64,000 nucleotides of DNA from an uncultured Gammaproteobacteria bacterium (GCA_964519725.1 CAZFKS010000005.1:6024-70023); one strand, 5' to 3'; counted from the stretch's first letter, positions 34,383 through 50,100 are shown. Made by a program: numbers and translations. Notes: generated by a model not told the origin, from the sequence alone.

Positions 34383-34407
34383 AAAAATCCCCTAACGGGG
34401 ATTTTTT
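34383..34407. terminator. bidirectional intrinsic terminator
   Basis: atcccc-taac-ggggat followed by T5. Confidence 0.6.
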
Positions 34408-35890
34408 AACGCATTGCTACAGCTGGAGCGGTTGAAGTTTGATATTCAGCCAAGAGGGTTTGCAAAGCTTGAAGATTTTTATGGTATTCTTTGTCACCCT
34501 TAACCACAAACTCATTCCATTTTTCCGAACCACTTCCCAACAGCATTCCTTTTTCACCCTCCACCGTGGAAACCTCCAAAGCCACTTTTCTTTTCTCTGC
34601 CCAACCCTGCAAGTTAATGGCTAATTCGACGAGATGTTTTTCCATTTGGGCACCTGGCTGTGTTTCAGCTAGGGTTCCGTACCATGTTTCAATTGCTTGA
34701 GTCCGTTTTTCAATATGAAAATTTTGCCGGCTGAACAATGACGGAACATCATCATTATACGCGCCCTTAACACCCTCTAGTTCAAATTCACGTTGGTTGG
34801 CAATCGCATCTTTTATGCGCTCATCATATGCCCGAACCGCGAGTTCTGATTTCAAAAAATCAACTAGAGCTTGTCGCAATTTCGTTTGAATATTTTTAGG
34901 CGCTTTTTCTATTTGTGGAATGGCATGTTTAGCCAATTCAACCGCTGAATTCACTTGTTTAGTGTAGAAATCTTCGTGATTTTTTAGTGGTAAGTAATTT
35001 TCGCTAGTATAAAAAATACTACTGGTACCGTAGCCACTGCCCATGACCGGAGGCTGAACGTAAATTGATTCCTGAAAAATTCCTCGCATGGTCTGTAATT
35101 CAGTCTCTGGTATGGCTAGCAAATTAGCCAGTTCAGGTGCAAATTTTTCGGAAAATTTTATACTCCGGTCAATTTGATGGCCAAATTTTAAATATACACC
35201 CAAAAGTCCAGGGCCTGATTCTTCGACTGACAAACCAAGGCCTTTTTTCGGGTGCTCTGAAACATAACGTTTAAACTGTTTAAAAAGATAAGATGTATCA
35301 GGCACCTCAACACTTTCTGGCATGATCAAAAAAGAATCTGGCACTGGGGGTGGTGAAAATTCATCAGCTGATTTAAGTAACTCGGCGGTGGCGTTCTTGG
35401 CCTCTTCAAACTGCTGATATTCCTGTCCCACTTTGGCTGCGCCCAAGACTCCGAGACCAACCAAGGGCCCAGCCATAAAACGGCGAAATTTTTCCATTCG
35501 GGTCGCAATTTCTTTTCGAAAAACTTTAAATTCAGCTAGCAGACCCTCTAGTTTTTGCACGGCTTCAGGCGATTTTTTACCAAGCCATTCATCGCGCAAA
35601 GTCTTAATTTCCGCAATTAAAGTATCAATTTCAACCCGAGCCAAATTTTTATCAATGTGCCCTTCAGCCAAATTCTTTTTAATGTCAGCCAAATGACCAA
35701 CAAACTTTTCCCAAATTGCCTGAGCCTGGGTTTCAGGGGCTTTGAGCGCAGCTTCTACTATCTCATTGACCTCCGGCAAAGTTTGGTACAATTCGGGTGT
35801 TTCCTGTTCCGTATCCTCCTCAGCCTGAGGTTCAAATTCAGCGACAAAATGTGATGATTCGGCTTCAGTGCCGGCACTAAGTCTACCCAT
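34406..35890 (-). CDS. hypothetical acidic coiled-coil protein (494 aa from MGRLSAG)
   Basis: Long ORF with host-like codon usage, an acidic N-terminus and predicted coiled-coils. No recognised domain. Divergent from the ABC permease array. Confidence 0.55.
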   Translation of the reverse strand: MGRLSAGTEAESSHFVAEFEPQAEEDTEQETPELYQTLPEVNEIVEAALKAPETQAQAIWEKFVGHLADIKKNLAEGHIDKNLARVEIDTLIAEIKTLRDEWLGKKSPEAVQKLEGLLAEFKVFRKEIATRMEKFRRFMAGPLVGLGVLGAAKVGQEYQQFEEAKNATAELLKSADEFSPPPVPDSFLIMPESVEVPDTSYLFKQFKRYVSEHPKKGLGLSVEESGPGLLGVYLKFGHQIDRSIKFSEKFAPELANLLAIPETELQTMRGIFQESIYVQPPVMGSGYGTSSIFYTSENYLPLKNHEDFYTKQVNSAVELAKHAIPQIEKAPKNIQTKLRQALVDFLKSELAVRAYDERIKDAIANQREFELEGVKGAYNDDVPSLFSRQNFHIEKRTQAIETWYGTLAETQPGAQMEKHLVELAINLQGWAEKRKVALEVSTVEGEKGMLLGSGSEKWNEFVVKGDKEYHKNLQALQTLLAEYQTSTAPAVAMR

Positions 35891-35969
35891 AAAATATAAT
35901 AATACCTTAAGGGTAAATGGTAATTGCCAAAAAGTCAAAAAACACCTAGAATTAAAGGTAATTTCTCAC

Positions 35970-36761
35970 ATGAGCAAGTATCTACGGGCGTACAAAAATT
36001 CAGTTTCAGCTTTTTTACAGTACCGATTAAACTTGGTGCTATATTCAGTTGGCCATGCCATTAGTTTGTCTGGTCTATTTTTTCTGTGGTTGACTATTTA
36101 CCAGACTGGCGGGCAAGTTGGGTCATACAGTTTTACTGAGATTATCACCTATTACATACTAATTTCTTTTTTGCGTTTAACGATTAACGATGCCGTGGGC
36201 GCGAGTTTTGACATGATTGATGACATTCGTGAGGGCCGAATTACGGCATTTTTGATTAAACCCTACAGTTATCTAGCTTCAATGCTCGCCAATATTTTAG
36301 GACGCACCACGGTTAACTTTACCTTTGTTTTACCGGTTACTTTTGTCTTTATTTGGATTTTTAATTTTTTCAGTGTTTTACCAAACACCCAACACGCGCT
36401 GTGGTTTGTGCTTTTCCTAGGAATCGCCCTGTTCATGTACTTTTTGCTGTACGCTCTAGTCGCCCTGTGTGCATTTTGGGTTGAACAAGGACACAACTAT
36501 GTTTATGCCCTCATTGTGTTTAGTAACTTTTTAAACGGTTCACTCTTGCCGCTGGATATTTTTCCGGCTTGGTTTCAAAATCTGAGTAATTACGGGCCAT
36601 TTCAATTTCTCATGTATGTTCCGATTCAAGTTTTTTTAGAAAAACCATTAGATTATAGTAATTTAATAATTAAAGCGGGCATCTGGCTGATAATTTTATC
36701 GATCACGTTAATTGGCATATTTCGAGTGGGCGTCAAAAAATACGAAGGCACTGGCATATGA
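35970..36761 (+). CDS. ABC-2 family permease, type A (copy 1)
   Basis: Six TM helices with a conserved YxxGGxVGSYSFTEIITYYILISF ... DIREGRITAFLIKPYS pattern. Start at MSKYLRAY. Confidence 0.75.
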   Translation: MSKYLRAYKNSVSAFLQYRLNLVLYSVGHAISLSGLFFLWLTIYQTGGQVGSYSFTEIITYYILISFLRLTINDAVGASFDMIDDIREGRITAFLIKPYSYLASMLANILGRTTVNFTFVLPVTFVFIWIFNFFSVLPNTQHALWFVLFLGIALFMYFLLYALVALCAFWVEQGHNYVYALIVFSNFLNGSLLPLDIFPAWFQNLSNYGPFQFLMYVPIQVFLEKPLDYSNLIIKAGIWLIILSITLIGIFRVGVKKYEGTGI

Positions 36762-37543
36762 AATACCTTCGGATTTACTGGGTTTTACTTAAAACCAACC
36801 TGATTAATACCATGACTTACCGGTCAAATTTTTTCGCTGGTGCAATTATTACCGGATTTGAAACTGTGATTTCATTCTACGCAATTAAAATTTTATTCAC
36901 GCACATCAGTGGCATTGCGGGTTGGTCATACACCGACATGATGGTTTTAACTGGAATTGGTTTTCTAGCGAATAGTATTAGTTGGTTTACTTTCAGAGCC
37001 GGTGTTGAAAAATTAGATCATTTAATTAACAAGGGAGATTTTGATTTCATGCTCCTTAGACCAATTAGCGCTCGCTTTTTAGTAAGTGTATATCGGCTTG
37101 ACGTCGAAGATGCGGCTCGCGGCTTAGTTGGAATTAGTATTTTACTTCGCGGATTATCTTTGGGTGATTATCACATTGGTTTTTTCAATATTTTGCTTTT
37201 TTTGATCGCCTTTTTAGCGGGTGAAATTATTTTATACTGCATTCAAATTAGCCTCAAAACCATGAGCTTCAAAACTATTCAGGGTTGGGCCAGTAACAAT
37301 ACTTTTTTCCGAATCCAAGAAATCAGCCAATACCCCGTGGATATTTACCGCGGCCTAACCAAAATGATCTACACGTTCGTTATTCCAGTCTTGTTTATTG
37401 CCACAGTTCCAGCTAAGATTTTACTAGGTAAAGGCAGTTTGTGGCTGGCTTTAGGCGCAGTAGTGGCCGCGGCCACAGCCTTATTAGTTTCTCAGTTAAT
37501 TTGGCGCATGGCCGTTAAAAGCTATTCCAGCGCTTCCAGCTAA
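36758..37543 (+). CDS. ABC-2 family permease, type B (copy 1)
   Basis: IAGWSYTDMMVL ... LDHLINKGDFDFMLLRPIS. ATGA start/stop overlap with the upstream gene. Confidence 0.75.
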   Translation: MKYLRIYWVLLKTNLINTMTYRSNFFAGAIITGFETVISFYAIKILFTHISGIAGWSYTDMMVLTGIGFLANSISWFTFRAGVEKLDHLINKGDFDFMLLRPISARFLVSVYRLDVEDAARGLVGISILLRGLSLGDYHIGFFNILLFLIAFLAGEIILYCIQISLKTMSFKTIQGWASNNTFFRIQEISQYPVDIYRGLTKMIYTFVIPVLFIATVPAKILLGKGSLWLALGAVVAAATALLVSQLIWRMAVKSYSSASS

Positions 37544-37544
37544 T

Positions 37545-38339
37545 ATGCAAAAATACTGGCAATTACTTGGCATGTTTATTACCCGGTACCTTAGTTACCG
37601 AGCGCGGGTAGTGATTCACGCGATTACTGATTCGACTCAGTATTTACTCTTTCCATTTTTGTGGATGGCAATTTTTGCCAATTCCAGGCCGCCCGGTGGA
37701 TTTACGATTAATAGTTTAGTGACCTATTACATTGTCATGGCCATTGTGACCGCTGGTTTTACCGCTCACCCCTCAAGGCATGTGCGCAACGAACTCCACG
37801 ATGGGAGTGTAAATCGGTTTTTAATTTCACCCCTGCCGTTTTTTAACAAAATGCTCATGGCCGAGATTTCGTACAAATGTATTTCTTCAATTTTGGCCGC
37901 GATTACCTTGATTACCCTATTCATTTTTGCGCGTGAAAGTGTAGTTTTTCCTGATTCAATCGTGCGTTGGGGTTTGTTTTTAATCAGTCTGATTTTTACT
38001 TTTTCTATTTCTTTTTTAATCGAGTATATTTTAGGCCTTGGTTCAATGTGGATTGGGGATATTCACTCAATTCAAACTTGGGAAGAAATTATGAATGCGA
38101 TTTTTTCTGGCCGGCTCGCCCCACTCGCGTTTTTGCCCTTATTTTTGCAGCACGGCGCAGCCTACTTGCCATTTCAATACATTGCGTTTGTGCCAGCGCA
38201 AATTTTTCTGGGCCGGATTTCCACTACTGAAACCTGGGTCGCATTTAGCCACGCCCTGGTTTGGGTGGCGATTTTAGGTACGATTGTTTATGTCATGTGG
38301 CGCCGCGGTTTATACCGTTATGATGGCTCAAGTATATGA
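37545..38339 (+). CDS. ABC-2 family permease, type A (copy 2)
   Basis: GGFTINSLVTYYIVMAIV ... ELHDGSVNRFLISPLP, paralogous to copy 1A. Confidence 0.75.
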   Translation: MQKYWQLLGMFITRYLSYRARVVIHAITDSTQYLLFPFLWMAIFANSRPPGGFTINSLVTYYIVMAIVTAGFTAHPSRHVRNELHDGSVNRFLISPLPFFNKMLMAEISYKCISSILAAITLITLFIFARESVVFPDSIVRWGLFLISLIFTFSISFLIEYILGLGSMWIGDIHSIQTWEEIMNAIFSGRLAPLAFLPLFLQHGAAYLPFQYIAFVPAQIFLGRISTTETWVAFSHALVWVAILGTIVYVMWRRGLYRYDGSSI

Positions 38340-39124
38340 GAAAATATTTACACATTTATAAAATTTTAATTGCCAATGCGATTTCACGCGAGGCTCAATT
38401 TCGTGCTGACACCTGGATGAACTGGTTTACCCACTTAGGTTTCATGGGCTTTTTGGTTCTACTCTTTGAGGTATTTTTTCAATTCACTAATTCAATTGCT
38501 GGCTGGTCAAAACCCGAGGTTTTCCTACTCATTATTATTTTTACAATTTCCCAACAATTATTTCACTTTTTCTTTCGCAATAATTTGTGGGATTTACCGA
38601 ATAAAATTACGGACGGGAAACTCGACGTGTATTTAACTTCGCCAGTTAATATTATTTTCTTAGTTTGTGCGCGTGAAGTTACAACCAAGGCCCTTCTCCG
38701 AATTTTCACTCAATTTATTTTACTCGGCTGGCTCCTGACTCATTATAATTTGGTTCTTTCGGCTTGGTCCTGGCTCAGTATTGTAGTGTTATTATTTGTC
38801 GGACTCATTACCCAAGTCGCCTTTGCTTTAATCATCAATACTTTTAGTTTCTGGTTTTTACGGATTGATAATGTGAATGACGCTTGGTTTTACGTGGGTC
38901 AAATGGGCCGTTACCCGCTTTCAGTTTTACCACAAACATTGTCACTCATTGCGTTTACCGCAGTGCCAATTGCTTACCAAAGTTTTGTACCAGTTGGTTT
39001 TGGCCTTGGTAAATTGGGCTGGCTATTCTTTTTTGGTGCGCTTGGCTGGGCCACTTTCTTGAGCCTGGTGGCGATTAGCTTCTGGAATTTTGGCTTAAAA
39101 CATTATGAAAGTGCGTCAGTATGA
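38336..39124 (+). CDS. ABC-2 family permease, type B (copy 2)
   Basis: IAGWSKPEVFLL ... KITDGKLDVYLTSPVN. Overlapping start/stop. Confidence 0.75.
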   Translation: MRKYLHIYKILIANAISREAQFRADTWMNWFTHLGFMGFLVLLFEVFFQFTNSIAGWSKPEVFLLIIIFTISQQLFHFFFRNNLWDLPNKITDGKLDVYLTSPVNIIFLVCAREVTTKALLRIFTQFILLGWLLTHYNLVLSAWSWLSIVVLLFVGLITQVAFALIINTFSFWFLRIDNVNDAWFYVGQMGRYPLSVLPQTLSLIAFTAVPIAYQSFVPVGFGLGKLGWLFFFGALGWATFLSLVAISFWNFGLKHYESASV

Positions 39125-39918
39125 AGCTTAATTGGCGCATGTATAAACAATTTGCGGAAATCGCTTGGTCAGAAACAATTGCATACCGTTTAAATTTTTT
39201 CCTCAGTCGCGTGCGTTATATTTTGGCAGTGATCCTGCTCTTTTTTGTTTGGCAGAGTGTGGGCACCACCCAAAAAACTGTCGGCACTTTTACCACTAAT
39301 GAAATTATCACTTACACAGTGGGCTTGTTGGTCGTTCGCGCGCTAGTTTTTGGCTACCAATCCCGGCGGGTAGCGGCTGATATTAATAATGGCACACTCA
39401 GTACTTACCTTTTGAAACCCGCTGAGTACTTGGGTTTTATGTTTATCAAAGAGTGCACCCAAAAATTTGTGTCCTTAATTAGTTCAATTGTTGAACTAAC
39501 CATTCTACTTTTTATTTTCCCGATTCCATTTACCGCTCCGCCAGTTGCAGTTTGGTTGCAAGTGGCTGTGATTATTTTTTTGGCCCACATCATGTACTTT
39601 TGCCTCAGCACCACCTTTAGTTTAATTGCGTTTTGGTCCAAAGAAGCCTTTGGTCCACGTTTTTTATTTGAGTGGTTTTTGGAATTTGCGGCCGGAGCCT
39701 ACATTCCAATTGCCTTATTCCCAGGACCTGTCCGGACTTTATTTGAACACCTACCATTTGTCCACTTTGTTTCCACTCCACTCTTAGTTTTCCTCCAAAA
39801 AATTACTCCAAGCCCAGCGCTATGGTTTGAACTTTTGGCCTGGTGCGTGTTTTTTGCCGGCGCCATGCTCATGGTTTGGCAGATTGGTTTGCGGCAGTAT
39901 CGCGCTGAAGGCCTATGA
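39121..39918 (+). CDS. ABC-2 family permease, type A (copy 3)
   Basis: GTFTTNEIITYTVGLLVV ... DINNGTLSTYLLKPAE. Confidence 0.75.
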   Translation: MKLNWRMYKQFAEIAWSETIAYRLNFFLSRVRYILAVILLFFVWQSVGTTQKTVGTFTTNEIITYTVGLLVVRALVFGYQSRRVAADINNGTLSTYLLKPAEYLGFMFIKECTQKFVSLISSIVELTILLFIFPIPFTAPPVAVWLQVAVIIFLAHIMYFCLSTTFSLIAFWSKEAFGPRFLFEWFLEFAAGAYIPIALFPGPVRTLFEHLPFVHFVSTPLLVFLQKITPSPALWFELLAWCVFFAGAMLMVWQIGLRQYRAEGL

Positions 39919-40697
39919 AATACCCACATATTCTAAGGCAATTGGCCAGCCTATCACTCCAAGACATGCTAACATCGCGCGTCGATAGTCTGGCTTATCT
40001 GCTGGGAAAAATTCTCCGCTTTGGTTTATTTTGGTTGACTATTACTGGAATTTATCACTTTCTTCCCCAAATCGCTGGCTATTCTTACACGGAATTATTA
40101 ACTTTTTTTCTAACTTTTAATTTAGTAGACGTGATGGGTCAAGCTTTATTCCGCGGAGTTTATTTTTTAGGTGATGCGGTAAAATATGGCCGGTTTGACT
40201 ACATGTTGGTAAAGCCAATTCGGCCCTTATTTTTTGTTTTGTTTCGTTTTATTGATTGGTTGGACTGTGTATTCCTGATTCCGATCACAATTTTAATGAT
40301 ATCTGTTTTAAGCACACTTGGCCCTCAGGTCACAGCCGCTAATTTAATTTGGTATGTTTGTGGTTTAATAATTGCCTTAATTATTAGTCTGACTATTCAC
40401 ATTGCGGCGGCTGGCATTACGGTTCGAGCAGGTGAAAGTGAGCAAGTAGTTTGGTTATACCGCGAAATTTTCCAGCTTGGTCGTTTTCCGACAGAAATTT
40501 TTCCCCTGCGCCTACAACTAGTTTTAACCTATGTTATTCCAATTGCGATTAGCATTGCCTGGCCAACTAAAATTTTATTGGGCTATTTGTCACCAAGCTA
40601 TTTGTGGCTGGGCGCAGGGATTAGCTTATTAGCCCTAGCCGCGTCTTTACGGTTCTGGCGGTCCAGTTTATACTATTATTCAAGTGCTTCTAGCTAA
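39915..40697 (+). CDS. ABC-2 family permease, type B (copy 3)
   Basis: IAGYSYTELLTF ... AVKYGRFDYMLVKPIR. C-terminal YYYSSASS resembles copy 1B's KSYSSASS. Confidence 0.75.
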   Translation: MKYPHILRQLASLSLQDMLTSRVDSLAYLLGKILRFGLFWLTITGIYHFLPQIAGYSYTELLTFFLTFNLVDVMGQALFRGVYFLGDAVKYGRFDYMLVKPIRPLFFVLFRFIDWLDCVFLIPITILMISVLSTLGPQVTAANLIWYVCGLIIALIISLTIHIAAAGITVRAGESEQVVWLYREIFQLGRFPTEIFPLRLQLVLTYVIPIAISIAWPTKILLGYLSPSYLWLGAGISLLALAASLRFWRSSLYYYSSASS

Positions 40698-40718
40698 AGA
40701 GAGGCTTAATTATCTACT

Positions 40719-41702
40719 ATGGCGACCATTTCTGTTAAAAATTTGAATAAAAAGTACGAATACTATCGTAAGTCTTCAGGGCTGTGGAATTCAGTAAAAA
40801 GCCTATTTCACCGTGAAAAATTATTCACTGAGGCAGTCAAAGATATTTCGTTTGAAATTAAAGAGGGCGAATTTGTTGGGTTTTTAGGCCCAAATGGCGC
40901 GGGAAAAACTACGACCCTAAAAATGTTATCCGGAATTTTGTACCCTACCAGTGGTAAGGCCACAGTGCTGGGGTATGTACCAAGTAAACGCCAAGCCGTT
41001 TTTCAAAAACAATTTGCCCTGGTCATGGGTCAAAAAAATCAGCTCTGGTGGGACTTACCAGCCATGGAAAGTTTTCTTTTAAACAAAGCGATTTATGAAG
41101 TTCCAGACGCTGAGTTTGACGCCAGTTTAAATGAACTGACTGAACTCCTGGAAATTAAAGATATTTTGGATATTCCAGTGCGCAAACTTTCGCTTGGCCA
41201 ACGCATGAAATGCGAACTGGCCGCTGCCCTCCTCCACTCACCAAAGGTATTATTTCTCGACGAACCAACCATTGGTCTAGATGTTGTTTCACAAAATAAT
41301 ATTCGTGAGTTCTTAAAAAAATACAATAAAACCAAGAAAACTACGATTATTTTGACTTCCCACTACATGGAAGATGTGGCGGCCCTCTGCGAGCGCGTCA
41401 TTATTATTAATTATGGTCAAGTGATTTACGATGGCAAATTGGCCGCTCTCCTAGACGAGCACGCTGATCATAAAATTTTGGAAATCACGTTTACGGAAGA
41501 TATTGAAAAAAGCACACTCCAAAAATACGGCACAGTCAAAGAATACAAAACCAAGTACGCGATTGTCGAGGTGCCAAAAACTTCGGCCAAAAAAGTAGCG
41601 GCGGAAATTCTGACAAAACTTCCAGTAGATGATATACTCATTAATGAAGTGAGTATTGATGATGTAATCCGTCACATTTTCTCGCTGAGTAAAAAATCGT
41701 AA
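40719..41702 (+). CDS. ABC transporter ATP-binding protein (partner of the ABC-2 permeases)
   Basis: Walker A GPNGAGKTTTLKM, signature LSLGQRMK, Walker B LFLDEPTIGLD, and a C-terminal extension domain. Confidence 0.9.
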   Translation: MATISVKNLNKKYEYYRKSSGLWNSVKSLFHREKLFTEAVKDISFEIKEGEFVGFLGPNGAGKTTTLKMLSGILYPTSGKATVLGYVPSKRQAVFQKQFALVMGQKNQLWWDLPAMESFLLNKAIYEVPDAEFDASLNELTELLEIKDILDIPVRKLSLGQRMKCELAAALLHSPKVLFLDEPTIGLDVVSQNNIREFLKKYNKTKKTTIILTSHYMEDVAALCERVIIINYGQVIYDGKLAALLDEHADHKILEITFTEDIEKSTLQKYGTVKEYKTKYAIVEVPKTSAKKVAAEILTKLPVDDILINEVSIDDVIRHIFSLSKKS

Positions 41703-41713
41703 TTTCCTGTCCT

Positions 41714-42787
41714 ATGGTTAAGACTGAAAAAGTGAATTTTAGCAAAATGCGCTCGGCCTTTTTCTTTGGCCTGATTGCGCTGTTGACTATGGCCATGCTC
41801 TATTTATTTCAACCTTTCTTTTACCCAATTTTCTGGGCCGCGGTAATTGCCGTAATGTTTTACCCACACTACGAATGGTTAAATAATTATCTCAAAATGC
41901 CAAATCTCAATGCTGGGATTATGGTTGGTATAGTGATTTTGACTATTTTCATCCCATTAACACTGGTGTTTGCGCTCCTGGCCAGTGAAGCGGGCAAAGC
42001 TTATGGTCGGGTAGATGTAAATGACATCACTCCACATGTGCAAAAATTAACTGAATGGTTAAATCACACACCACTTGGCAATATGTTACCAAGTTCACCA
42101 GCAGAGTGGAGTAAAAAAACTGCCGAGTGGGGTGAAAAAATTAGTGGCTCAATGCTGACCTATTTGAAAAGCTTTACTCAAAACTCGTTCAGTTTTATTT
42201 TCAATTTATTCCTAATGTTTTACTCGCTCTTTTTCTTTTTCCGTGACGGTAAAGCCATACTCATGCGTCTCATGCACTTATCACCGCTTGGGGAAAAATA
42301 TGAAATCATGCTTTACGAACATTTCACTTCCACCACGCGCGCCACTTTGAAGAGCACCCTGATTGTGGGCACAATTCAGGGACTACTAGGTGCACTTTTG
42401 TTCTGGCTAACTGGGGTGTCAGGTGCGTTTGTGTGGGGCGTGTTAATGTTGGTGTTCTGTTTAATTCCAGCGGTTGGTTCATTTATTGTCTGGCTCCCAA
42501 TTGGTTTAATCATGCTGGCACTTGGCAATATTTGGCAGGGTGTAACAATTTTAGCCGTTGGTGCGCTCGTCATTAGTACGATTGATAATTTCCTCCGCCC
42601 ACCACTCATCGGCAAGGACATTCAGATGCACCCACTCTTGGTTTTATTCTCAACCCTTGGCGGAATTTTCGTATTTGGCATTTCTGGGTTTGTGATCGGG
42701 CCAGTTCTAGCTTCGCTCTACCTCGCGACCATGAGCATTTACGACCATTACTACAAAAACGAATTAGACTTAGAACATAAAGCTTAA
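41714..42787 (+). CDS. AI-2E family transporter (PerM/UPF0118)
   Basis: Eight TM helices with a typical AI-2E N-terminus (FFFGLIALLTMAMLYLFQPFFYPIFWAAVIAV) and a C-terminal GPVLASL. Confidence 0.8.
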   Translation: MVKTEKVNFSKMRSAFFFGLIALLTMAMLYLFQPFFYPIFWAAVIAVMFYPHYEWLNNYLKMPNLNAGIMVGIVILTIFIPLTLVFALLASEAGKAYGRVDVNDITPHVQKLTEWLNHTPLGNMLPSSPAEWSKKTAEWGEKISGSMLTYLKSFTQNSFSFIFNLFLMFYSLFFFFRDGKAILMRLMHLSPLGEKYEIMLYEHFTSTTRATLKSTLIVGTIQGLLGALLFWLTGVSGAFVWGVLMLVFCLIPAVGSFIVWLPIGLIMLALGNIWQGVTILAVGALVISTIDNFLRPPLIGKDIQMHPLLVLFSTLGGIFVFGISGFVIGPVLASLYLATMSIYDHYYKNELDLEHKA

Positions 42788-42793
42788 GCAAAC

Positions 42794-42819
42794 AAAAAAT
42801 CCCCACGTGGGGATTTTTT
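42794..42819. terminator. intrinsic terminator
   Basis: aaaaaatcccc-acgt-ggggatttttt. Confidence 0.6.
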
Positions 42820-42869
42820 AATAAAAATGGTTGGGCGGCGAGCGGGCGCGTCGTCGTCCAACGCGCGGC

Positions 42870-43124
42870 TCACCGCCTAGTTCTCGGCGAAGAGGGCGGG
42901 GGCAATTCCACGGCCGGACCCAGAGGATTTACCTCGGAGATCCGGTAGTTGTTGGCCTGCACATAACTCGGAGGCACACTCTTCAGCGCCTCCGCGTGAG
43001 TGGTTAGTCCACTTTTGTGCAAGACCCACTTGCTTTTCGGATCGCTCCTGACCTCCACCTTCCAGGTGGAGGGTTCTGGAATTGGCTGGGCCGGGATAAA
43101 CTTCAAAGGCTTCTTGGTGCTCAC
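42870..43124 (-). CDS. hypothetical 84-aa protein on the high-GC islet abutting tRNA-Leu (GTG start)
   Basis: GC-rich ORF preceded by a strong SD (ccAAGGAGAtcgtcGTG) and followed by a GC-rich imperfect hairpin. No recognised domain. An alternative overlapping 99-aa frame exists but has a poorer start context. Confidence 0.45.
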   Translation of the reverse strand: MSTKKPLKFIPAQPIPEPSTWKVEVRSDPKSKWVLHKSGLTTHAEALKSVPPSYVQANNYRISEVNPLGPAVELPPPSSPRTRR

Positions 43125-43185
43125 GACGATCTCCTTGGACAGACCAAATCTGTCTTAGTTTGTACTTATTTATCATATTTTAAAT

Positions 43186-43222
43186 AAAAAAACAAGATCC
43201 AGAGTCAGGATCTTAGTTTTAG
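43186..43222 (-). terminator. intrinsic terminator following tRNA-Leu
   Basis: On the minus strand: ctaagatcc-tgactctg-ggatcttg followed by T7. Confidence 0.5.
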
Positions 43223-43225
43223 GTG

Positions 43226-45371: not shown

Positions 45372-45539
45372 ATTGACGATATTTTCCGACAACAAGTGAT
45401 TGCTGTTTTTTAGCTTATCCTAGCAAAATATCTATACCACAGAATGCAATTTTTGTCAATATGTACTATAATTGTAGACGAACTTTTTGTCCAGTGGTAA
45501 TGTTGGCCGTTGCCGATACTGGCAGCGAGGGAGGGGAGA

Positions 45540-46244
45540 ATGGACCTAAAAGGACAAGTACGGAAAATAGGGCGGCCAATTTGGCGACATGCGGCTTTGC
45601 ACCGGATTTCTCAGGGGGAATTTACCCCTGACGAGATGCGGCGCTTTGTCCTGCAGCGCCATGCTTTAGCCACAGGTTTTGTCGGACTCCTCAAGAGCAT
45701 CATCCGGAATACGGACGACGAGGCTCTCAGAGAGTGTGTCTGGCAAAACCTGGCGGACGAGACCGGTCACGGCGTAGAGCGTGATTCGCATGCCACCTGG
45801 CGTGCGGATTATCTGCGCGGACTTGGGCTTGACCCGCCCTACACAGCACCGCTCTGGAGCGGCACCAGGCACTACAATGAGGTTTTGCGCGAGCTCAGCT
45901 CCGCCAATCCTCTCGTCAGTGCTGGTGCACTTTGGCTCCTGGAGCGGAGCCTTCCACCTGAATTTGCGCGAATCCGGCGCGGACTCGAGCGGGTGTTCCC
46001 AAACACCTTTGTGCTCAGTCTGGCTGATACAGCCGAAGTGCGTGCTCGCAAAGAGCGCACCCGGTTGTATCTCGTGGATCACGAACGGCACGATGCCGCG
46101 TACCACGAGCCTGACTTGCGACGTGTGCTTACCCGTCCCGACTGGGACGGACGTGCGTGCGCGTCAATTCTCTTAGGCGCTGAGCTCGTCGCCGCTGCCA
46201 AAGTGAAGTTCTACGACTCGGTCGCAGACTCGCTTGGCAAGTAA
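45540..46244 (+). CDS. hypothetical high-GC protein (234 aa), possibly heme-oxygenase-like/PqqC-TenA-like helical fold
   Basis: Strong SD (GGGAGGGGagaATG). GC3-rich codons and an all-helical, Arg-rich composition. The NLADETGHG segment is weakly reminiscent of iron-containing redox/PqqC-like proteins. Followed by the GC hairpin at 46251-46270. Confidence 0.55.
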   Translation: MDLKGQVRKIGRPIWRHAALHRISQGEFTPDEMRRFVLQRHALATGFVGLLKSIIRNTDDEALRECVWQNLADETGHGVERDSHATWRADYLRGLGLDPPYTAPLWSGTRHYNEVLRELSSANPLVSAGALWLLERSLPPEFARIRRGLERVFPNTFVLSLADTAEVRARKERTRLYLVDHERHDAAYHEPDLRRVLTRPDWDGRACASILLGAELVAAAKVKFYDSVADSLGK

Positions 46245-46294
46245 ACGCTCCCCCGGTCGCAAGGCCGGGGTCAACTCTTTGCAAAGTGAGAAAT

Positions 46295-46321
46295 AAAAAA
46301 TCCCCGCCAGGGGATTTTTTA
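46295..46321. terminator. bidirectional intrinsic terminator between the convergent high-GC genes
   Basis: aaaaaatcccc-gcca-ggggatttttt. An upstream GC hairpin ccccggtcgcaaggccgggg and the palindrome ctttgcaaag also lie here. Confidence 0.55.
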
Positions 46322-46418
46322 TTTTAAACCAACTTAATATTCATTTAAAAAAAATAAATACTCAGTTAGGTTGCGCGGCCGATCCTTTTCGGACCAGTCA
46401 CCGCGCTTCCCTCCTGCG

Positions 46419-46994
46419 CTAGTCTTTGGTGATGGGGTCTGGGTCCCCTTCAGCCATTCCGTAGCGCTTTTGACCGCGATCAGTCTTGTGGTCGATGGTG
46501 CCATGTGACACTTCAACCACTGTGGCGCTGCAGAGCGGTCGCAGAACCAGCTGAACCGGTGAGCGATCGGGCCCAAACGTCTGGGGAACCTCCCCAACGT
46601 TCAGAACCGAGAGCACTGCGCCTTTCCAGTCGGCTGGGTCCGGGCGGTAGTTCTGGTCGAACACCACACCGGCCGGAATCACGAGCCGTTTTTTGGCCGG
46701 ACCAGTCTTGGCCACGACCTCGGCGAACCACCCTGGCGGTGGAACAAAGGTGAGTCCGGTGGCGAACTCGGCCGCTTGTCCGGGAAGGACTGTGAACTCC
46801 TCCACAGGAAACACGTCCCAGCCCGAGTCTGAGGCATGGGATTTGGTGGGAATTCTTCCCCCCATTTCCCGAGCCCTCGGGTGAAGGCTGAATTTGAAGA
46901 CCGCAGGGCCCTTTTCCTCGAGCCGAGAAATTCTCCAGTTGATCCAGCCGAATCCAAACACCACGACCGCTGTAACGACACTTTCAAAGACCAT
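46419..46994 (-). CDS. hypothetical high-GC protein (191 aa) with dUTPase/dCTP-deaminase-like beta-barrel motifs and an N-terminal TM segment
   Basis: SD cGGAGGGAGaaaagccATG at MVFESVV. Segments SDSGWDV, VAKTGPAKK, GVVFDQNYRPD and RSPVQLVL align with dUTPase motifs I, III, IV and V in order. GC3-rich. Confidence 0.5.
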   Translation of the reverse strand: MVFESVVTAVVVFGFGWINWRISRLEEKGPAVFKFSLHPRAREMGGRIPTKSHASDSGWDVFPVEEFTVLPGQAAEFATGLTFVPPPGWFAEVVAKTGPAKKRLVIPAGVVFDQNYRPDPADWKGAVLSVLNVGEVPQTFGPDRSPVQLVLRPLCSATVVEVSHGTIDHKTDRGQKRYGMAEGDPDPITKD

Positions 46995-47085
46995 GGCTTT
47001 TCTCCCTCCGTTTTTGGAGTCCAATTTTACCATAAGGTTATATTTTTTCAATATTACTTAATGTCTCAAAATAAATATTTAAAAA

Positions 47086-47118
47086 ATAAAAAATCCCCCG
47101 ATTCCGGAGGATTTTTTA
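47086..47118. terminator. bidirectional intrinsic terminator
   Basis: aaaaaatcccccg-attc-cggaggatttttt between the dUTPase-like gene and the nrdJ 3' end. Confidence 0.55.
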
Positions 47119-47135
47119 TTAACTATCCCATCTCT

Positions 47136-50100
47136 TTAACTGCATCCTAGTGAATCACCACAGTTCAAACATTTGTAACAAGCACCGTTACGCACTGTAA
47201 TGTGTCCGCAGGTTGGACAAGCTGGAGCATCACCCATCATTTCACCAAGCGCAGCATCCATCGCATCCACGGCGCCAGTGTTTTCACTTGGCAATGGTAA
47301 TTCCATGGTTGCTTCTTCGGCCGTAGTTTCTACAGCTGGAACGGCCACCACTTGTGTGGTTGGTGCTGCCATCATGTCAGTTAAACGGGCTTGCGCACCA
47401 TTATCTGCTACTTGGCGAGTGGCAATTTGTTCAAAGCGATTTTTTTGAATTCCTTTTGGTGGCACCTGCACAAAGTCTGTGCGGCCGAGGTATTCCATAC
47501 CCAAAACGCGGAACACGAAATCAATCACTGAGGTACAAATTTTTACATTTGGATGGTCAGTCATGCCAGCTGGTTCAAAACGGGTAAAGACAAAGTTTTC
47601 AACAAACTTTTCGAGCGGCACACCGTATTGCAAACCAATTGAAACTGAAATTGCAAACATGTTTAACATACTGCGGAAACCAGCGCCTTCTTTGTACATA
47701 TCAATGAAAATTTCCGCCAGTTTTCCGTCTGGATATTCACCAGTGCGTAACCAAATTTGTTGATTACCAATTTTAGCTGACACAGTAATCCCACTGCGTT
47801 TAGCTGGTAAGCGGCGTTTTTCACCGTGCACATACACGTGGTGGTCAGTTACAGTGCCGTCTTTACTGTACATTTCCATGGCGTGTGAATCTGGCGTGTG
47901 ACTACTCATGATCTGACTGACTTTTTGTAGAGCAGTCGAAAGATCAGCCGCCGTAGTTGAAACAGCTGCGCGGAGCGGTTCAACTTTTGTTTCTTCTTTT
48001 TCTTTTTTATCTTCAGCTTTCTTAGAAGACGTAGCGAGCGGCTGTGAAAGTTTTGATCCGTCGCGGTAAAGTGCTACAGCCTTCAAACAAAGTTCCCAAG
48101 ATTCCCAGTACGCTTGTTTTACATCTTCCAAAGTGGCTTCATTTGGCATGTTAATGGTCTTGGAAATCGCCCCGGAGAGGAATGGCTGAGCAGAAGCCAT
48201 CATGCGCAAGTGGCCGCGCCAGTGAATATAACGTTGACCTTTTTTTCCACATTTATTAGCACAGTCAAAAATTGGGTAGTGACTCTCAGCCAAATGTGGC
48301 GCACCTTCAATGGTCATGGCTCCACACACATATTCATTGGCCGCTTCAATTTGATCGGCAGTAAAACCAAGACCAGCGAGCATGTTAAAGTTTGGATCAT
48401 TGTACTCAGTTGGAGTAAAGCCAGCCCGTTTCAAGCAATCCTCGCCCAAGGTCCACATGTTGAACGCAAATTTAATTTCAAAGGCTGAACCAAGCGCTTT
48501 ATTAAGCGCCACTAAATCAGCGTCAGTGAAACCTTTAGCTTTCAAAGTGTCAGCATTGATAAATGGCGCTTTGGTAATGTCCCCAGTGCCTTTCATATAA
48601 TCAACAATGTCACTAATTTGACTGGTCGTATAGCCCAAATTCTTGAGTGCGACTGGCACTGCATCATTAACAATTTTGAAATATCCCCCACCAGCCAATT
48701 TTTTGAATTTTACCAAGGCAAAATCTGGTTCAACCCCAGTGGTAGCACAGTCCATTAAGAGACCAATGGTTCCAGTTGGTGCGAGCAAGGTGGTTTGGGC
48801 ATTGCGGTAACCATATTCTTCACCCCACTCTAAAGCTTCATTCCAGGATTCACGGGCCGCGGCCAACAAATAAGCCGGAGCATACTCAGGATTAATTCCC
48901 ACTGGTTTCACCGTTAATTTTTCGTAATCAGCGTCTGGAGCATTAAAGGCCGCGCGACGGTGGTTGCGAATAACGCGGAGCATGTCTTTTTTATTGAGTT
49001 CGTACTTTGGGAAAGTGCCCAGGAAACGAGCCATTTCCGCGCTAGTGCGGTAACTTTCACCAGTCATGAGCGCAGTAACAGCGCCAGTGAACGCGTAGGC
49101 TTCTTCTGATTCATACGGAATTCCACTCATCATCAAGACTGACCCAATGTTAGCATAACCAAGACCCAAAGTGCGGAACTCATAACTCATTTGCGCAATT
49201 TCTTTACTTGGGAATTGAGCCATGAGCACGGAAACCTCCAAAACTACAGTCCACAAACGAGTGGCATGTTTGAAACCGTCAACATCAAAGGTCAAAGTGG
49301 CTGGGTCGAAAAAGTGCACCAAGTTAAGTGAGGCCAAGTTACAAGCTGTGTTGTCGAGGAACAAATATTCACTGCATGGATTTGAGCCATTAATCCGACC
49401 AGATTGTGGTGAAGTGTGCCATTCATTAATATTGTCATCAAACTGGAGACCAGGATCAGCACAAGCCCAGGCCGCAAACGCAATTTGATCCCAAAGTTCT
49501 TGAGCTTTCAAAGTTTTGCAAGTTGACCCATCAGTGCGCCAAGTCAAATTCCAACTACCATCGTTTTTGAGTGCTTCCATGTATTTGTTTGGAACACGCA
49601 CTGAGTTGTTGGAATTTTGACCAGATACGGTTTGGTACGCTTCACCCTCGTAATCAGATGGATAACCAGCGGCCATGAGCGCGGCCACTTTCTTTTCTTC
49701 TTCTACCTTCCAGTTAATGAAAGTCAAAATATCTGGGTGGTCAAGATTCAAAATCACCATTTTGGCAGCGCGGCGAGTCGTACCACCAGATTTAATGGCG
49801 CCAGCAGCGCGATCACCAATTTTTAACCAACTCATGAGGCCAGAAGATTTACCGCCACCTGACAAAGGTTCGCCACGACCACGAAGATTGGAGAAATTGG
49901 TTCCAGTTCCAGAACCATATTTGAACAAACGTGCTTCACGCACCCAAAGATCCATGATCCCGCCCTCATTTACCAGGTCGTCATTAATTGATTGGATAAA
50001 ACAAGCGTGTGGTTGCGGGTGAGAGTAGGCGTCTTTGGCGCGAGTGAGCACACCAGTGTCTGGGTCAACGTAATAATGTCCCTGTGCTCCGCTGTTAATT

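What the first reader, a model, noticed from the sequence alone, without database searches (positions are those of the whole stretch)
35970..42787. Triplicated heterodimeric ABC-2 permease module (A-B-A-B-A-B) served by one ATPase, coupled to an AI-2E transporter
Six consecutive permease genes of about 260 aa have overlapping start/stop codons. They fall into two alternating paralogue classes: class A has the TEIITYY-like helix plus a DxxxGxxxxxLxKP loop; class B has the IAG(W/Y)S motif plus a DxxxxxKP loop. This amounts to three tandem copies of a two-permease unit, yet only one ATPase gene (with a C-terminal extension) follows, then an AI-2E transporter. Systems of this family that I know usually have one ATPase and two permeases. 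A three-fold expansion of the membrane component with a shared energiser suggests diversified substrate or peptide specificity, possibly export or immunity. A divergent 494-aa acidic coiled-coil protein upstream (34406-35890) may be functionally linked.
Basis: seen in the sequence. Interest (0 to 1): 0.65.

Follow-up and report, generated by a model that had tools for sequence, protein, structure and literature searches.

The report
Three permease pairs, one ABC ATPase
A candidate-phyla-radiation bacterium carries an operon with three anciently diverged pairs of ABC-2 membrane subunits and a single highly conserved ATPase; related genomes mix and match such pairs like cassettes, a layout not described for this poorly understood transporter family.

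Summary
Six back-to-back genes (35970-40697) all match Pfam PF06182 and alternate between two classes, A-B-A-B-A-B. One DrrA/ABCA-like ATPase and an AI-2E gene follow in the same apparent operon. It is not a recent triplication. Copies within a class share only 20-26% identity, about as much as with non-CPR homologues.

Across 83 related Patescibacteria loci the permeases fall into well-supported subclades that pair strictly (A1-B1, A2-B2, A3-B3 and others). These pairs occur in different numbers (1-3), orders and combinations next to one ATPase that stays 57-85% identical.

Best reading: three alternative heterodimeric type V membrane modules share one ATPase dimer. Positions conserved in all modules lie in the cytoplasmic TM2-TM3 loop and the C-terminal tails. 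Helices TM3-TM6 vary most.

The substrate is unknown. In other CPR lineages the array is flanked by GT2, GT4, Wzy_C and Wzx genes, and the fold is closest to Wzm, KpsM and TarG. This points weakly to lipid-linked glycans. Nothing supports peptide export or immunity. The acidic upstream protein is not linked. The AI-2E linkage is specific to one clade.

Verdict: a new variant of the known EVE/DUF990 ABC-2 family, of moderate interest.

The parts
35924..35952 (+). Promoter-like site (TTGCCA-17-TAGAAT), 18 nt upstream of the first permease start
   Evidence: Consensus scan, 10 of 12 matches; sequence read. This is a consensus match only; function is not shown.
35970..36761 (+). Permease P1, class A, subclade A1 (263 aa)
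   Evidence: PF06182 E 2e-22. Identical to a 263-aa NCBI protein, P0121. A1 clade bootstrap 100. AF2 model pLDDT 86.7 with the type V helix pattern.
36758..37543 (+). Permease P2, class B, subclade B1 (261 aa); partner of P1
   Evidence: PF06182 E 5e-44. AF2 pLDDT 93.5. Foldseek best matches are Wzm, KpsM, NosY and TarG. A1 is always adjacent to B1 in the loci.
37545..38339 (+). Permease P3, class A, subclade A2 (264 aa)
   Evidence: PF06182 E 4e-22. A2 clade bootstrap 99.
38336..39124 (+). Permease P4, class B, subclade B2 (262 aa); partner of P3
   Evidence: PF06182 E 4e-40. B2 clade bootstrap 99. A2 and B2 are always adjacent.
39121..39918 (+). Permease P5, class A, subclade A3 (265 aa)
   Evidence: PF06182 E 1e-20. 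A3 clade bootstrap 94.
39915..40697 (+). Permease P6, class B, subclade B3 (260 aa); partner of P5
   Evidence: PF06182 E 3e-30. B3 clade bootstrap 100. This module is absent from the six closest relatives but present in L005, L007, L013, L017 and L026.
40719..41702 (+). Single ABC ATPase (327 aa), DrrA/NatA/ABCA-like, with intact Walker A, signature, Walker B and H-loop
   Evidence: PF00005 E 7e-28. Best NCBIfam model is drrA, 220 bits, below its cut-off. Nearest solved relatives are the ABCA3/7/4/1 NBDs and 4yer. It is 57-85% identical in 80+ CPR genomes, one locus per assembly. Motifs were read from the translation.
41714..42787 (+). AI-2E family membrane protein (357 aa), last gene of the apparent operon
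   Evidence: PF01594 E 7e-52. It starts 11 nt after the ATPase stop. It lies immediately downstream of the ATPase in 20 Magasanik-type loci and in none of the others.
42793..42820 (.). Bidirectional intrinsic-terminator-like hairpin (AAAAAATCCCCACGTGGGGATTTTTT), 6 nt after the AI-2E stop
   Evidence: Terminator scan, 12-pair stem; sequence read.

Best explanation
The operon encodes three alternative transporters that share one motor. Each adjacent A-B pair (P1-P2, P3-P4, P5-P6) is inferred to form a heterodimeric membrane domain of the type V (ABC-2) exporter fold. Each pair is inferred to dock a dimer of the single ATPase. The docking elements proposed are those conserved in every module: the cytoplasmic TM2-TM3 loop (G-x8-P motif) and the nearly invariant C-terminal tails (class A ...YEGxGI, class B ...YSSASS). 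The membrane helices differ between modules, which would give different substrate specificities.

The three pairs are not recent copies. They belong to a repertoire of at least eight ancient A-B cassette types that Patescibacteria combine, one to three per operon, beside one conserved ATPase. The window's lineage kept three.

Shown:
- family, fold and the two classes;
- strict pairing of subclades;
- variable module content among relatives;
- a single ATPase per locus;
- the conservation pattern along the permease.

Inferred: physical assembly of each pair with the same ATPase, and separate specificities.

The substrate is not known. The leading guess, about 0.3, is membrane-embedded amphipathic molecules such as polyprenyl-phosphate-linked glycans.
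For: - Family and classes.
- Fold: AF2 models with pLDDT 93.5 and 86.7 show an N-terminal interfacial helix, six TM helices and short helices between TM5 and TM6. Foldseek's top hits are Wzm, KpsM, NosY, TarG and ABCG25, with TM-scores of 0.5-0.6.
- Pairing: A1-B1, A2-B2, A3-B3, A6-B4, A8-B5, A9-B7 and A10-B8 are always adjacent. Clade bootstraps are 94-100, except B1 at 56. Sister groups are mirrored between the A and B trees (A1+A5 85; B2+B5 78 against A2+A8 43).
- Modularity: complete arrays next to the ATPase hold 2, 3, 4, 5 or 6 genes in 23, 8, 19, 3 and 6 loci. Module order differs: window 1-2-3, L007 and L017 1-3-2, L019 2-x-1, L026 3-2.
- One motor: 80 loci from 80 different assemblies each carry one ATPase of this type. 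At 84% ATPase identity the orthologous permeases are only 45-62% identical.
- Shared interface: positions conserved across the B modules are G93, D96, P102 and F107 (cytoplasmic loop), P193, P210 and P218, and the C-tail, which is 0.82 conserved. TM3-TM6 are the least conserved. The tails are near-invariant in all subclades.
- Single operon: overlapping genes, a promoter-like site and a terminator.
- Substrate lead: GT2/GT4 genes lie within 1 kb of the array in 27 loci and Wzy_C in 23. Of 28 Wzy_C copies, 24 are under 1 kb away and none is beyond 3 kb. Wzx lies 1-3 kb away. UppS is 1.1 kb downstream in the window. PMT or polyprenyl synthase genes sit next to non-CPR homologues. The ATPase is nearest to ABCA lipid transporters.
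Against: - No complex was modelled or measured. Cross-pairing (A of one module with B of another) or assembly of only one pair with the ATPase cannot be excluded.
- Only 64 kb of this genome is visible, so a second ATPase of this type elsewhere is possible. None appeared twice per assembly, but that scan is pattern-limited and truncated at 80 loci.
- Foldseek E-values are all above 1e-3.
- The glycan link is synteny in other lineages. The window's own array has no GT or Wzy_C neighbour. Synteny among related MAGs is partly inherited rather than independent.
- The only characterised family member, EvrABC, exports viologens (PMC5417439, PMC10469934).
- Class-A-like 'A4' permeases occur without a B partner, so the A-B heterodimer rule is not universal.
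Confidence: 0.6

Rival explanations
1. The modules are multidrug or cation efflux pumps. Like EvrABC of Synechocystis, each would export toxic quaternary-ammonium-type or other xenobiotic compounds, and extra modules would broaden the resistance spectrum. This is still a shared ATPase; only the substrate reading differs.
For: The only experimentally characterised member of the DUF990/EVE family exports viologens (PMC5417439; PMC10469934). The ATPase's best NCBIfam model is the daunorubicin-resistance drrA subfamily.
Against: - The drrA score (220) is below its cut-off of 312.
- The ATPase is 57-85% identical across many CPR classes and sits in a stable housekeeping neighbourhood (AhcY, UppS). 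This looks like a core function rather than accessory resistance.
- Glycan-assembly genes are tightly linked in about 27 loci.
- Drug pumps seldom keep strict, ancient subunit pairings in several parallel versions.
Confidence: 0.2
2. All six permeases and the ATPase build one large hetero-oligomeric machine rather than three separate transporters.
For: All genes are translationally coupled in one operon. Conserved tails could mediate contacts between subunits.
Against: Relatives with the same ATPase work with 2, 3, 4 or 5 permease genes and with different module sets. Known transporters of this fold have two membrane domains (established knowledge for Wzm-Wzt, TarGH and ABCG2; the hits are).
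Confidence: 0.05
3. The array is a peptide or bacteriocin export or immunity system, with the permease expansion matching several peptides.
For: ABC-2 systems with one ATPase and two permeases (LanFEG type) do protect against lantibiotics. The ATPase weakly matches TIGR03740 (120 bits).
Against: - TIGR03740's cut-off is 310 bits.
- The permeases match no NCBIfam or PADLOC model.
- There is no conserved small ORF in or next to the operon.
- There are no modification enzymes, peptidase domains or regulators nearby.
- The neighbours in relatives are glycan genes or AI-2E.
Confidence: 0.04
4. The extra pairs are redundant or decaying paralogues with no separate function.
For: The permeases evolve much faster than the ATPase (45-62% against 84% identity), and modules are often lost.
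Against: All six ORFs are full length and keep every family-invariant residue. Each has orthologues at 32-68% identity in genomes whose ATPase is 71-85% identical, so each has been kept over long times. Module 3 diverges at the same rate as modules 1 and 2.
Confidence: 0.06

Closest known systems
EvrABC of Synechocystis PCC 6803 and the EVE/DUF990 family (TCDB 3.A.1.141; Pfam PF06182; COG3694/COG4587 permeases with a NatA/DrrA-like ATPase)
   Same: The same Pfam family for all six permeases. Two distinct permease classes per transporter. An ATPase of about 330 aa of the DrrA/NatA type (PMC5417439; PMC6003355).
   Different: The described systems, and the non-CPR contexts sampled here, have one pair or a lone permease, and the ATPase comes first where one is adjacent. 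Here three pairs precede one ATPase. Relatives carry one to three pairs drawn from at least eight subclades. No ppGpp riboswitch is present.
Type V ABC exporters for lipid-linked polymers: Wzm-Wzt (O antigen), KpsMT (capsule), TarGH (teichoic acid)
   Same: These are the best structural matches to the P2 model (TM-score 0.5-0.6). They share the interfacial helix, six TM helices and re-entrant helices. In many CPR loci the array sits among GT2, GT4, Wzy_C and Wzx genes.
   Different: Those systems use a homodimer of one permease (PF01061). The window permeases do not hit PF01061 and work as A-B heterodimers. Sequence identity is 12-17%. No substrate-binding domain was identified on the ATPase.
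Multitask ATPases of type I importers (MsmX, MsiK) and group II ECF transporters with exchangeable S components
   Same: One ATPase or energising module serves several different membrane modules (PMC7658222). This is the working principle proposed here.
   Different: Those are importers with unrelated folds, and their membrane modules are usually scattered around the genome. Here the modules are type V exporter-fold pairs lined up in one operon with the ATPase. Sharing is inferred, not shown.
LolCDE and LptB2FG (one ATPase gene with two different permease subunits)
   Same: A heterodimeric membrane domain energised by a homodimer of a single ATPase gene product.
   Different: Different folds (types VII and VI), one pair only, and no modular expansion.

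Membership tests
EVE / DUF990 family (TCDB 3.A.1.141; Pfam PF06182) | Permeases match PF06182 above the gathering score | tested here: met
   All six score 75-151 bits against a cut-off of 22.
EVE / DUF990 family (TCDB 3.A.1.141; Pfam PF06182) | Two different permease subunits (EvrB/EvrC; COG3694/COG4587) per system | tested here: met
   There are two classes, with 15-20% identity across classes against 20-26% within a class. The family splits into 142 A and 97 B members. A direct comparison with EvrB/EvrC sequences was not possible because those sequences are not held.
EVE / DUF990 family (TCDB 3.A.1.141; Pfam PF06182) | Adjacent NatA/DrrA-type ATPase of about 330 aa | tested here: met
   The ATPase is 327 aa. 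The drrA subfamily is the best NCBIfam hit, below its cut-off. Non-CPR family operons have ATPases of 333-337 aa.
EVE / DUF990 family (TCDB 3.A.1.141; Pfam PF06182) | Operon of one ATPase plus exactly two permeases | tested here: not met
   There are six permeases and one ATPase, and the ATPase comes last. This is the point of difference.
EVE / DUF990 family (TCDB 3.A.1.141; Pfam PF06182) | Viologen (quaternary ammonium) export | not testable with these tools
   This needs an experiment.
Type V (ABC-2) exporter fold | N-terminal interfacial helix, six TM helices, short re-entrant helices between TM5 and TM6, and a coupling element between TM2 and TM3 | tested here: met
   The helix pattern is seen in the AF2 models. 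The top 17 Foldseek hits are all type V transporters, though their E-values are 2e-3 or weaker.
Wzm-Wzt / KpsMT / TarGH polymer exporters | Homodimeric PF01061 permease | tested here: not met
   There is no PF01061 hit at E<0.01 for any window permease. The permeases come as A-B pairs.
Wzm-Wzt / KpsMT / TarGH polymer exporters | Genetic linkage to glycan assembly genes | tested here: inconclusive
   The linkage is strong in about 27 other CPR loci. It is absent next to the window's array, where only UppS lies 1.1 kb downstream and a Wzx gene 22 kb upstream.
LanFEG-type lantibiotic immunity ABC transporters | ATPase reaches TIGR03740; permeases are of LanE/LanG type; a peptide gene cluster lies nearby | tested here: not met
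   TIGR03740 scores 120 bits against a cut-off of 310. No permease model matches. There is no conserved peptide ORF.
ppGpp-riboswitch-controlled natA-COG3694-COG4587 operons | ykkC subtype 2a riboswitch upstream | tested here: not met
   Rfam finds only three tRNAs in the window. The leader is about 80 nt.
Anti-phage defence systems (PADLOC) | Match to a defence-system protein model | tested here: not met
   The permeases, AI-2E and the acidic protein have no hits. The ATPase shows only generic ABC/AAA similarity.

The most novel reading that the evidence does not exclude
Patescibacteria use one ultra-conserved ATPase as a common engine for a combinatorial library of at least eight ancient membrane-pair cassettes. 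Each cassette would translocate a different polyprenyl-linked glycan or scavenged lipid. The set of cassettes a lineage keeps would shape its surface chemistry and perhaps its host range. This would be an exporter-side counterpart of ECF or S-component modularity.
Probability: 0.2. Interest if true: 0.75.

Novelty: new variant of a known kind. Interest (0 to 1): 0.5.

Why it matters
The DUF990/EVE family is widespread, yet it has one studied member and no solved structure. CPR bacteria have tiny genomes, yet some spend up to eight genes on this system and keep its ATPase as conserved as core enzymes.

Sharing one ATPase among several type V membrane modules would extend a principle so far described for importers (MsmX, ECF) to the exporter fold.

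The strict A-B pairing, the invariant C-terminal tails and the glycan-gene neighbourhoods give concrete, testable handles. They could be used on how these organisms build or feed their envelopes, which remains an open problem for uncultured episymbionts.

Tried and rejected
- An exact-sequence look-up of P2 found nothing on record. P1 (as P0121) was found only on a 2.5-kb Logan contig.
- The Rfam scan for a ppGpp or other riboswitch upstream was negative.
- A sequence search of the PDB with P2 gave no hit at E up to 10.
- Single-linkage clustering separated the two classes but not the modules. Average linkage and bootstrapped NJ trees were used instead.
- In seven loci, gaps of 0.8-7 kb between permeases and ATPase might have hidden divergent permeases. 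They hold unrelated genes: a reverse transcriptase, an ATP-grasp protein and membrane proteins.
- The defence or immunity reading was rejected (PADLOC negative). There are no conserved small ORFs.
- The acidic 494-aa protein as a partner was rejected. It is found only in L001 and is replaced by Vut_1 in L082 and L083.
- Recent acquisition of module 3 was rejected. Its divergence follows the same trend against ATPase identity as modules 1 and 2.
- Literature searches found no description of multi-pair arrays.
- Not used: the third word-index protein search, the representative-library search and the metagenome scan. The 83 loci answered the copy-number question.
Full report
**1. What is in the window**

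Between 35970 and 40697 on the plus strand lie six ORFs of 260-265 aa. Four junctions are ATGA start/stop overlaps and one is a 1-nt spacer. All six match Pfam PF06182 (ABC2_membrane_6, formerly DUF990) far above its gathering score.

A 327-aa ABC ATPase follows after 21 nt, and an AI-2E family membrane protein after a further 11 nt. A promoter-like site (TTGCCA-17-TAGAAT) lies at 35924-35952. A strong bidirectional hairpin terminator lies at 42793-42820, 6 nt after the AI-2E stop. The eight genes therefore look like one operon.

The ATPase has intact Walker A, signature, Walker B and H-loop motifs (translation). Its best NCBIfam model is the drrA subfamily, below cut-off. Its nearest solved relatives are the nucleotide-binding domains of the lipid transporters ABCA3, ABCA7, ABCA4 and ABCA1. 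Its C-terminal extension is normal for this family, since non-CPR relatives are 333-337 aa.

**2. The alternation is real, but old**

| Comparison | Identity | blastp E |
|---|---|---|
| P1, P3, P5 (class A) | 20-26% | 1e-16 to 3e-24 |
| P2, P4, P6 (class B) | 22-26% | 1e-10 to 6e-17 |
| Across classes | 15-20% | mostly weak |

With 254 permeases taken from 83 related loci and the window, single linkage at 32% identity gives two main groups of 142 and 97. The window's odd-numbered copies fall in one group and its even-numbered copies in the other.

Within each class, average-linkage clustering and bootstrapped neighbour-joining trees define subclades:

- Class A: A1 (bootstrap 100), A2 (99), A3 (94), A4 (100) and others.
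- Class B: B2 (99), B3 (100), B1 (56) and others.
- Mean identity is 38-48% within a subclade and 22-28% between subclades.

The window holds one member each of A1, B1, A2, B2, A3 and B3, in that order.

The three window copies of a class never form a clade (0/100 bootstraps for A1+A2+A3 and for B1+B2+B3). Non-CPR homologues nest among the CPR subclades (0/100 for an all-CPR clade). A window paralogue is as far from its sister copies (22-24%) as from Chloroflexi-type or Planctomycete-type homologues (22-26%). "Triplicated" is therefore true of the architecture but not of recent history.

**3. Origin and relatives**

A scan of one genome per species, using the ATPase as query, returned 80 loci from 80 different assemblies. 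By record title most are Patescibacteria: Magasanikbacteria, Kerfeldbacteria, Uhrbacteria, Moranbacteria, Falkowbacteria, Gracilibacteria, Peregrinibacteria and Saccharibacteria. Some third-party MAG records carry implausible proteobacterial titles. ATPase identity ranges from 57% to 84%.

The closest contigs (L082, L083, L001, L003) share the synteny VKOR, PfkB kinase, AhcY, array, ATPase, AI-2E, PduO-type adenosyltransferase, UppS.

**4. The pairs behave as cassettes**

In every locus an A subclade sits next to its own B subclade: A1-B1, A2-B2, A3-B3, A6-B4, A8-B5, A9-B7, A10-B8. The related clades A5 and A7 sit next to B1-like and B3-like partners.

Sister relationships are mirrored in the two trees. 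A1+A5 gets 85%. B2+B5 gets 78% against 43% for A2+A8. A3+A7 gets 47%. This is what duplication of A-B units predicts.

Module content varies freely. Complete arrays contiguous with the ATPase hold the following numbers of permease genes:

| Permease genes | 2 | 3 | 4 | 5 | 6 |
|---|---|---|---|---|---|
| Loci | 23 | 8 | 19 | 3 | 6 |

The six-gene count includes the window. L074 adds a seventh six-gene case when its sixth gene, separated by an insertion, is counted.

Order and composition also differ:

| Locus | Modules, in order |
|---|---|
| Window | 1-2-3 |
| L007, L017 | 1-3-2 |
| L019 | 2, A8B5, 1 |
| L026 | 3-2 |
| L005 | 2-3 |
| L001-L004, L020 | 1-2 |
| L074, L078-L080 | modules on both sides of the ATPase |

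The two nearest relatives (L082, L083) have 1-2 followed by a lone class-A-like A4 gene, in the slot where the window has A3-B3.

Module 3 is not a recent import. In genomes whose ATPase is 74-77% identical, A3/B3 are 32-45% identical to the window. Modules 1 and 2 in the same genomes show the same range. A three-module ancestor with differential loss fits best.

In seven loci unrelated genes have been inserted between the permeases and the ATPase.

Seven non-CPR contexts had one or two PF06182 genes and never more. This agrees with the literature layout of one ATPase and two permeases (PMC5417439; PMC6003355).

**5. Structure and the shared interface**

AlphaFold2 models of P2 (pLDDT 93.5) and P1 (86.7) show the same parts:

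- an N-terminal amphipathic helix;
- six TM helices;
- three short helices between TM2 and TM3;
- short helices between TM5 and TM6.

Foldseek against the PDB ranks Wzm, KpsM, NosY, TarG and ABCG25 first, with TM-scores of 0.5-0.6. No E-value is better than 2e-3. No member of PF06182 has a solved structure detectable by sequence.

Positions conserved across B1, B2 and B3 lie in three places:

- the TM2-TM3 cytoplasmic segment (G93, D96, P102, F107);
- the TM5-TM6 segment (P193, P210, P218);
- the last seven residues, which are 0.82 conserved.

TM3 to TM6 are the least conserved (0.32-0.39). Class A has the matching G89 and P98.

The C-termini are class signatures kept in all subclades: [KR][KR]YEG[VT]GI for class A and [KR]xYSSASS for class B. 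In transporters of this fold the TM2-TM3 loop is the coupling element that contacts the ATPase (established knowledge for Wzm-Wzt and ABCG2).

Conservation at the cytoplasmic face, variable membrane helices and a slowly evolving single ATPase together are what a shared motor with exchangeable membrane modules predicts. At 84% ATPase identity the orthologous permeases are only 45-62% identical. The assembly itself is inferred.

**6. What might be transported**

Nothing in the window names a substrate. There is no riboswitch, no defence-system match and no conserved small ORF.

Across the other loci, three families recur next to the array: GT2/GT4 glycosyltransferases, a Wzy_C (O-antigen-ligase-like) membrane protein, and a Wzx-type flippase. 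The proximity is far from random:

- GT density is 28 per 100 kb within 1 kb of the array, against 2-8 further out.
- Of 28 Wzy_C genes, 24 lie within 1 kb and none beyond 3 kb.
- Wzx lies 1-3 kb away.
- The arrangements differ between lineages (upstream or downstream, either strand).

Non-CPR homologues sit beside PMT-type glycosyltransferases or a polyprenyl synthase. The window has UppS 1.1 kb downstream.

Together with the Wzm/KpsM/TarG-like fold and the ABCA-like ATPase, this makes lipid-linked glycans or other membrane-embedded amphiphiles the leading guess. I put it at about 0.3.

The only experimental datum for the family is viologen export by EvrABC (PMC5417439; PMC10469934). Related MAGs share synteny by descent, and the window's own array lacks glycan neighbours.

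**7. AI-2E and the acidic protein**

AI-2E is the immediate downstream gene in 20 loci, all of the Magasanikbacteria type, whatever modules they carry. In L082 and L083 it overlaps the ATPase gene. It is never there in the loci that have Wzy_C or GT neighbours. It is thus a stable clade-specific partner of unknown meaning.

The acidic 494-aa protein on the other strand has no Pfam match. It recurs only in L001 (54%) and is replaced by a Vut_1 gene in L082 and L083. It is not part of the system.

**8. Verdict**

It is wrong about recency, uniqueness, the peptide or immunity idea and the acidic protein.

The system belongs to the known EVE/DUF990 ABC-2 family but departs from that family's defining one-ATPase-two-permease layout. 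The CPR-wide picture of strictly paired, ancient, exchangeable A-B cassettes beside one conserved ATPase was not found in the searchable literature. I rate it a new variant of a known kind, with interest 0.5.

Noticed in passing
window 42829-42866 (+), within the spacer 42825-43224: A 38-nt GC-rich sequence forms a perfect 12-bp hairpin (GGTTGGGCGGCGAGCGGGCGCGTCGTCGTCCAACGCGC). It is invariant in L001, L003 and L083 and nearly so in L082, and always lies just after the AI-2E terminator. The roughly 350 nt between it and tRNA-Leu differ between genomes, are GC-rich, and fold with z = -6.5 (minus strand) and -4.2 (plus strand). There is no Rfam match. The 84-aa ORF there is not conserved as protein.
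   Followed up: partly
L082 13196-14014 and L083 4032-4850; also L006, L014, L023, L035, L038, L045, L062 (lone) and L040-L050, L054, L060, L064, L065 (doublets): A well-supported class-A-like subclade, 'A4' (43 copies, bootstrap 100), occurs without a class B partner. It is either alone next to the ATPase or present as A4-A4 doublets. In the window's closest relatives it occupies the slot that holds A3-B3 in the window.
   Followed up: partly
about 27 loci, e.g. L006, L009, L032, L033, L046, L051, L055, L057: GT2, GT4, Wzy_C (O-antigen-ligase-like) and Wzx genes directly flank the permease array or the ATPase in many non-Magasanik CPR lineages. This set does not overlap with the loci where AI-2E follows the ATPase.
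   Followed up: yes
L089 5926-9469, L090 2667-6210, L095 1009-4710, L093 4336-7837: Non-CPR class B homologues occur as lone permeases between a fatty-acid desaturase and a PMT-type or unannotated membrane protein of about 560 aa, or as a pair after a polyprenyl synthase. No ABC ATPase is nearby.
   Followed up: no
L005 3279-4235 (-): A reverse-transcriptase-like ORF and other unrelated genes are inserted between the permease pairs and the ATPase, splitting the array by 7 kb.
   Followed up: no
record titles of L001, L007, L009, L011-L013, L074, L078 and others: Many third-party MAG records titled 'uncultured Gammaproteobacteria' or 'Pseudomonadales' carry loci that are 60-84% identical to, and syntenic with, Magasanikbacteria and other Patescibacteria loci. 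The titles look like mislabelled taxonomy.
   Followed up: no
window 45500-47200: This segment has GC of about 50% against a window mean of about 43%. It holds a 244-aa ORF and a 210-aa ORF of unclear identity and may be foreign DNA.
   Followed up: no
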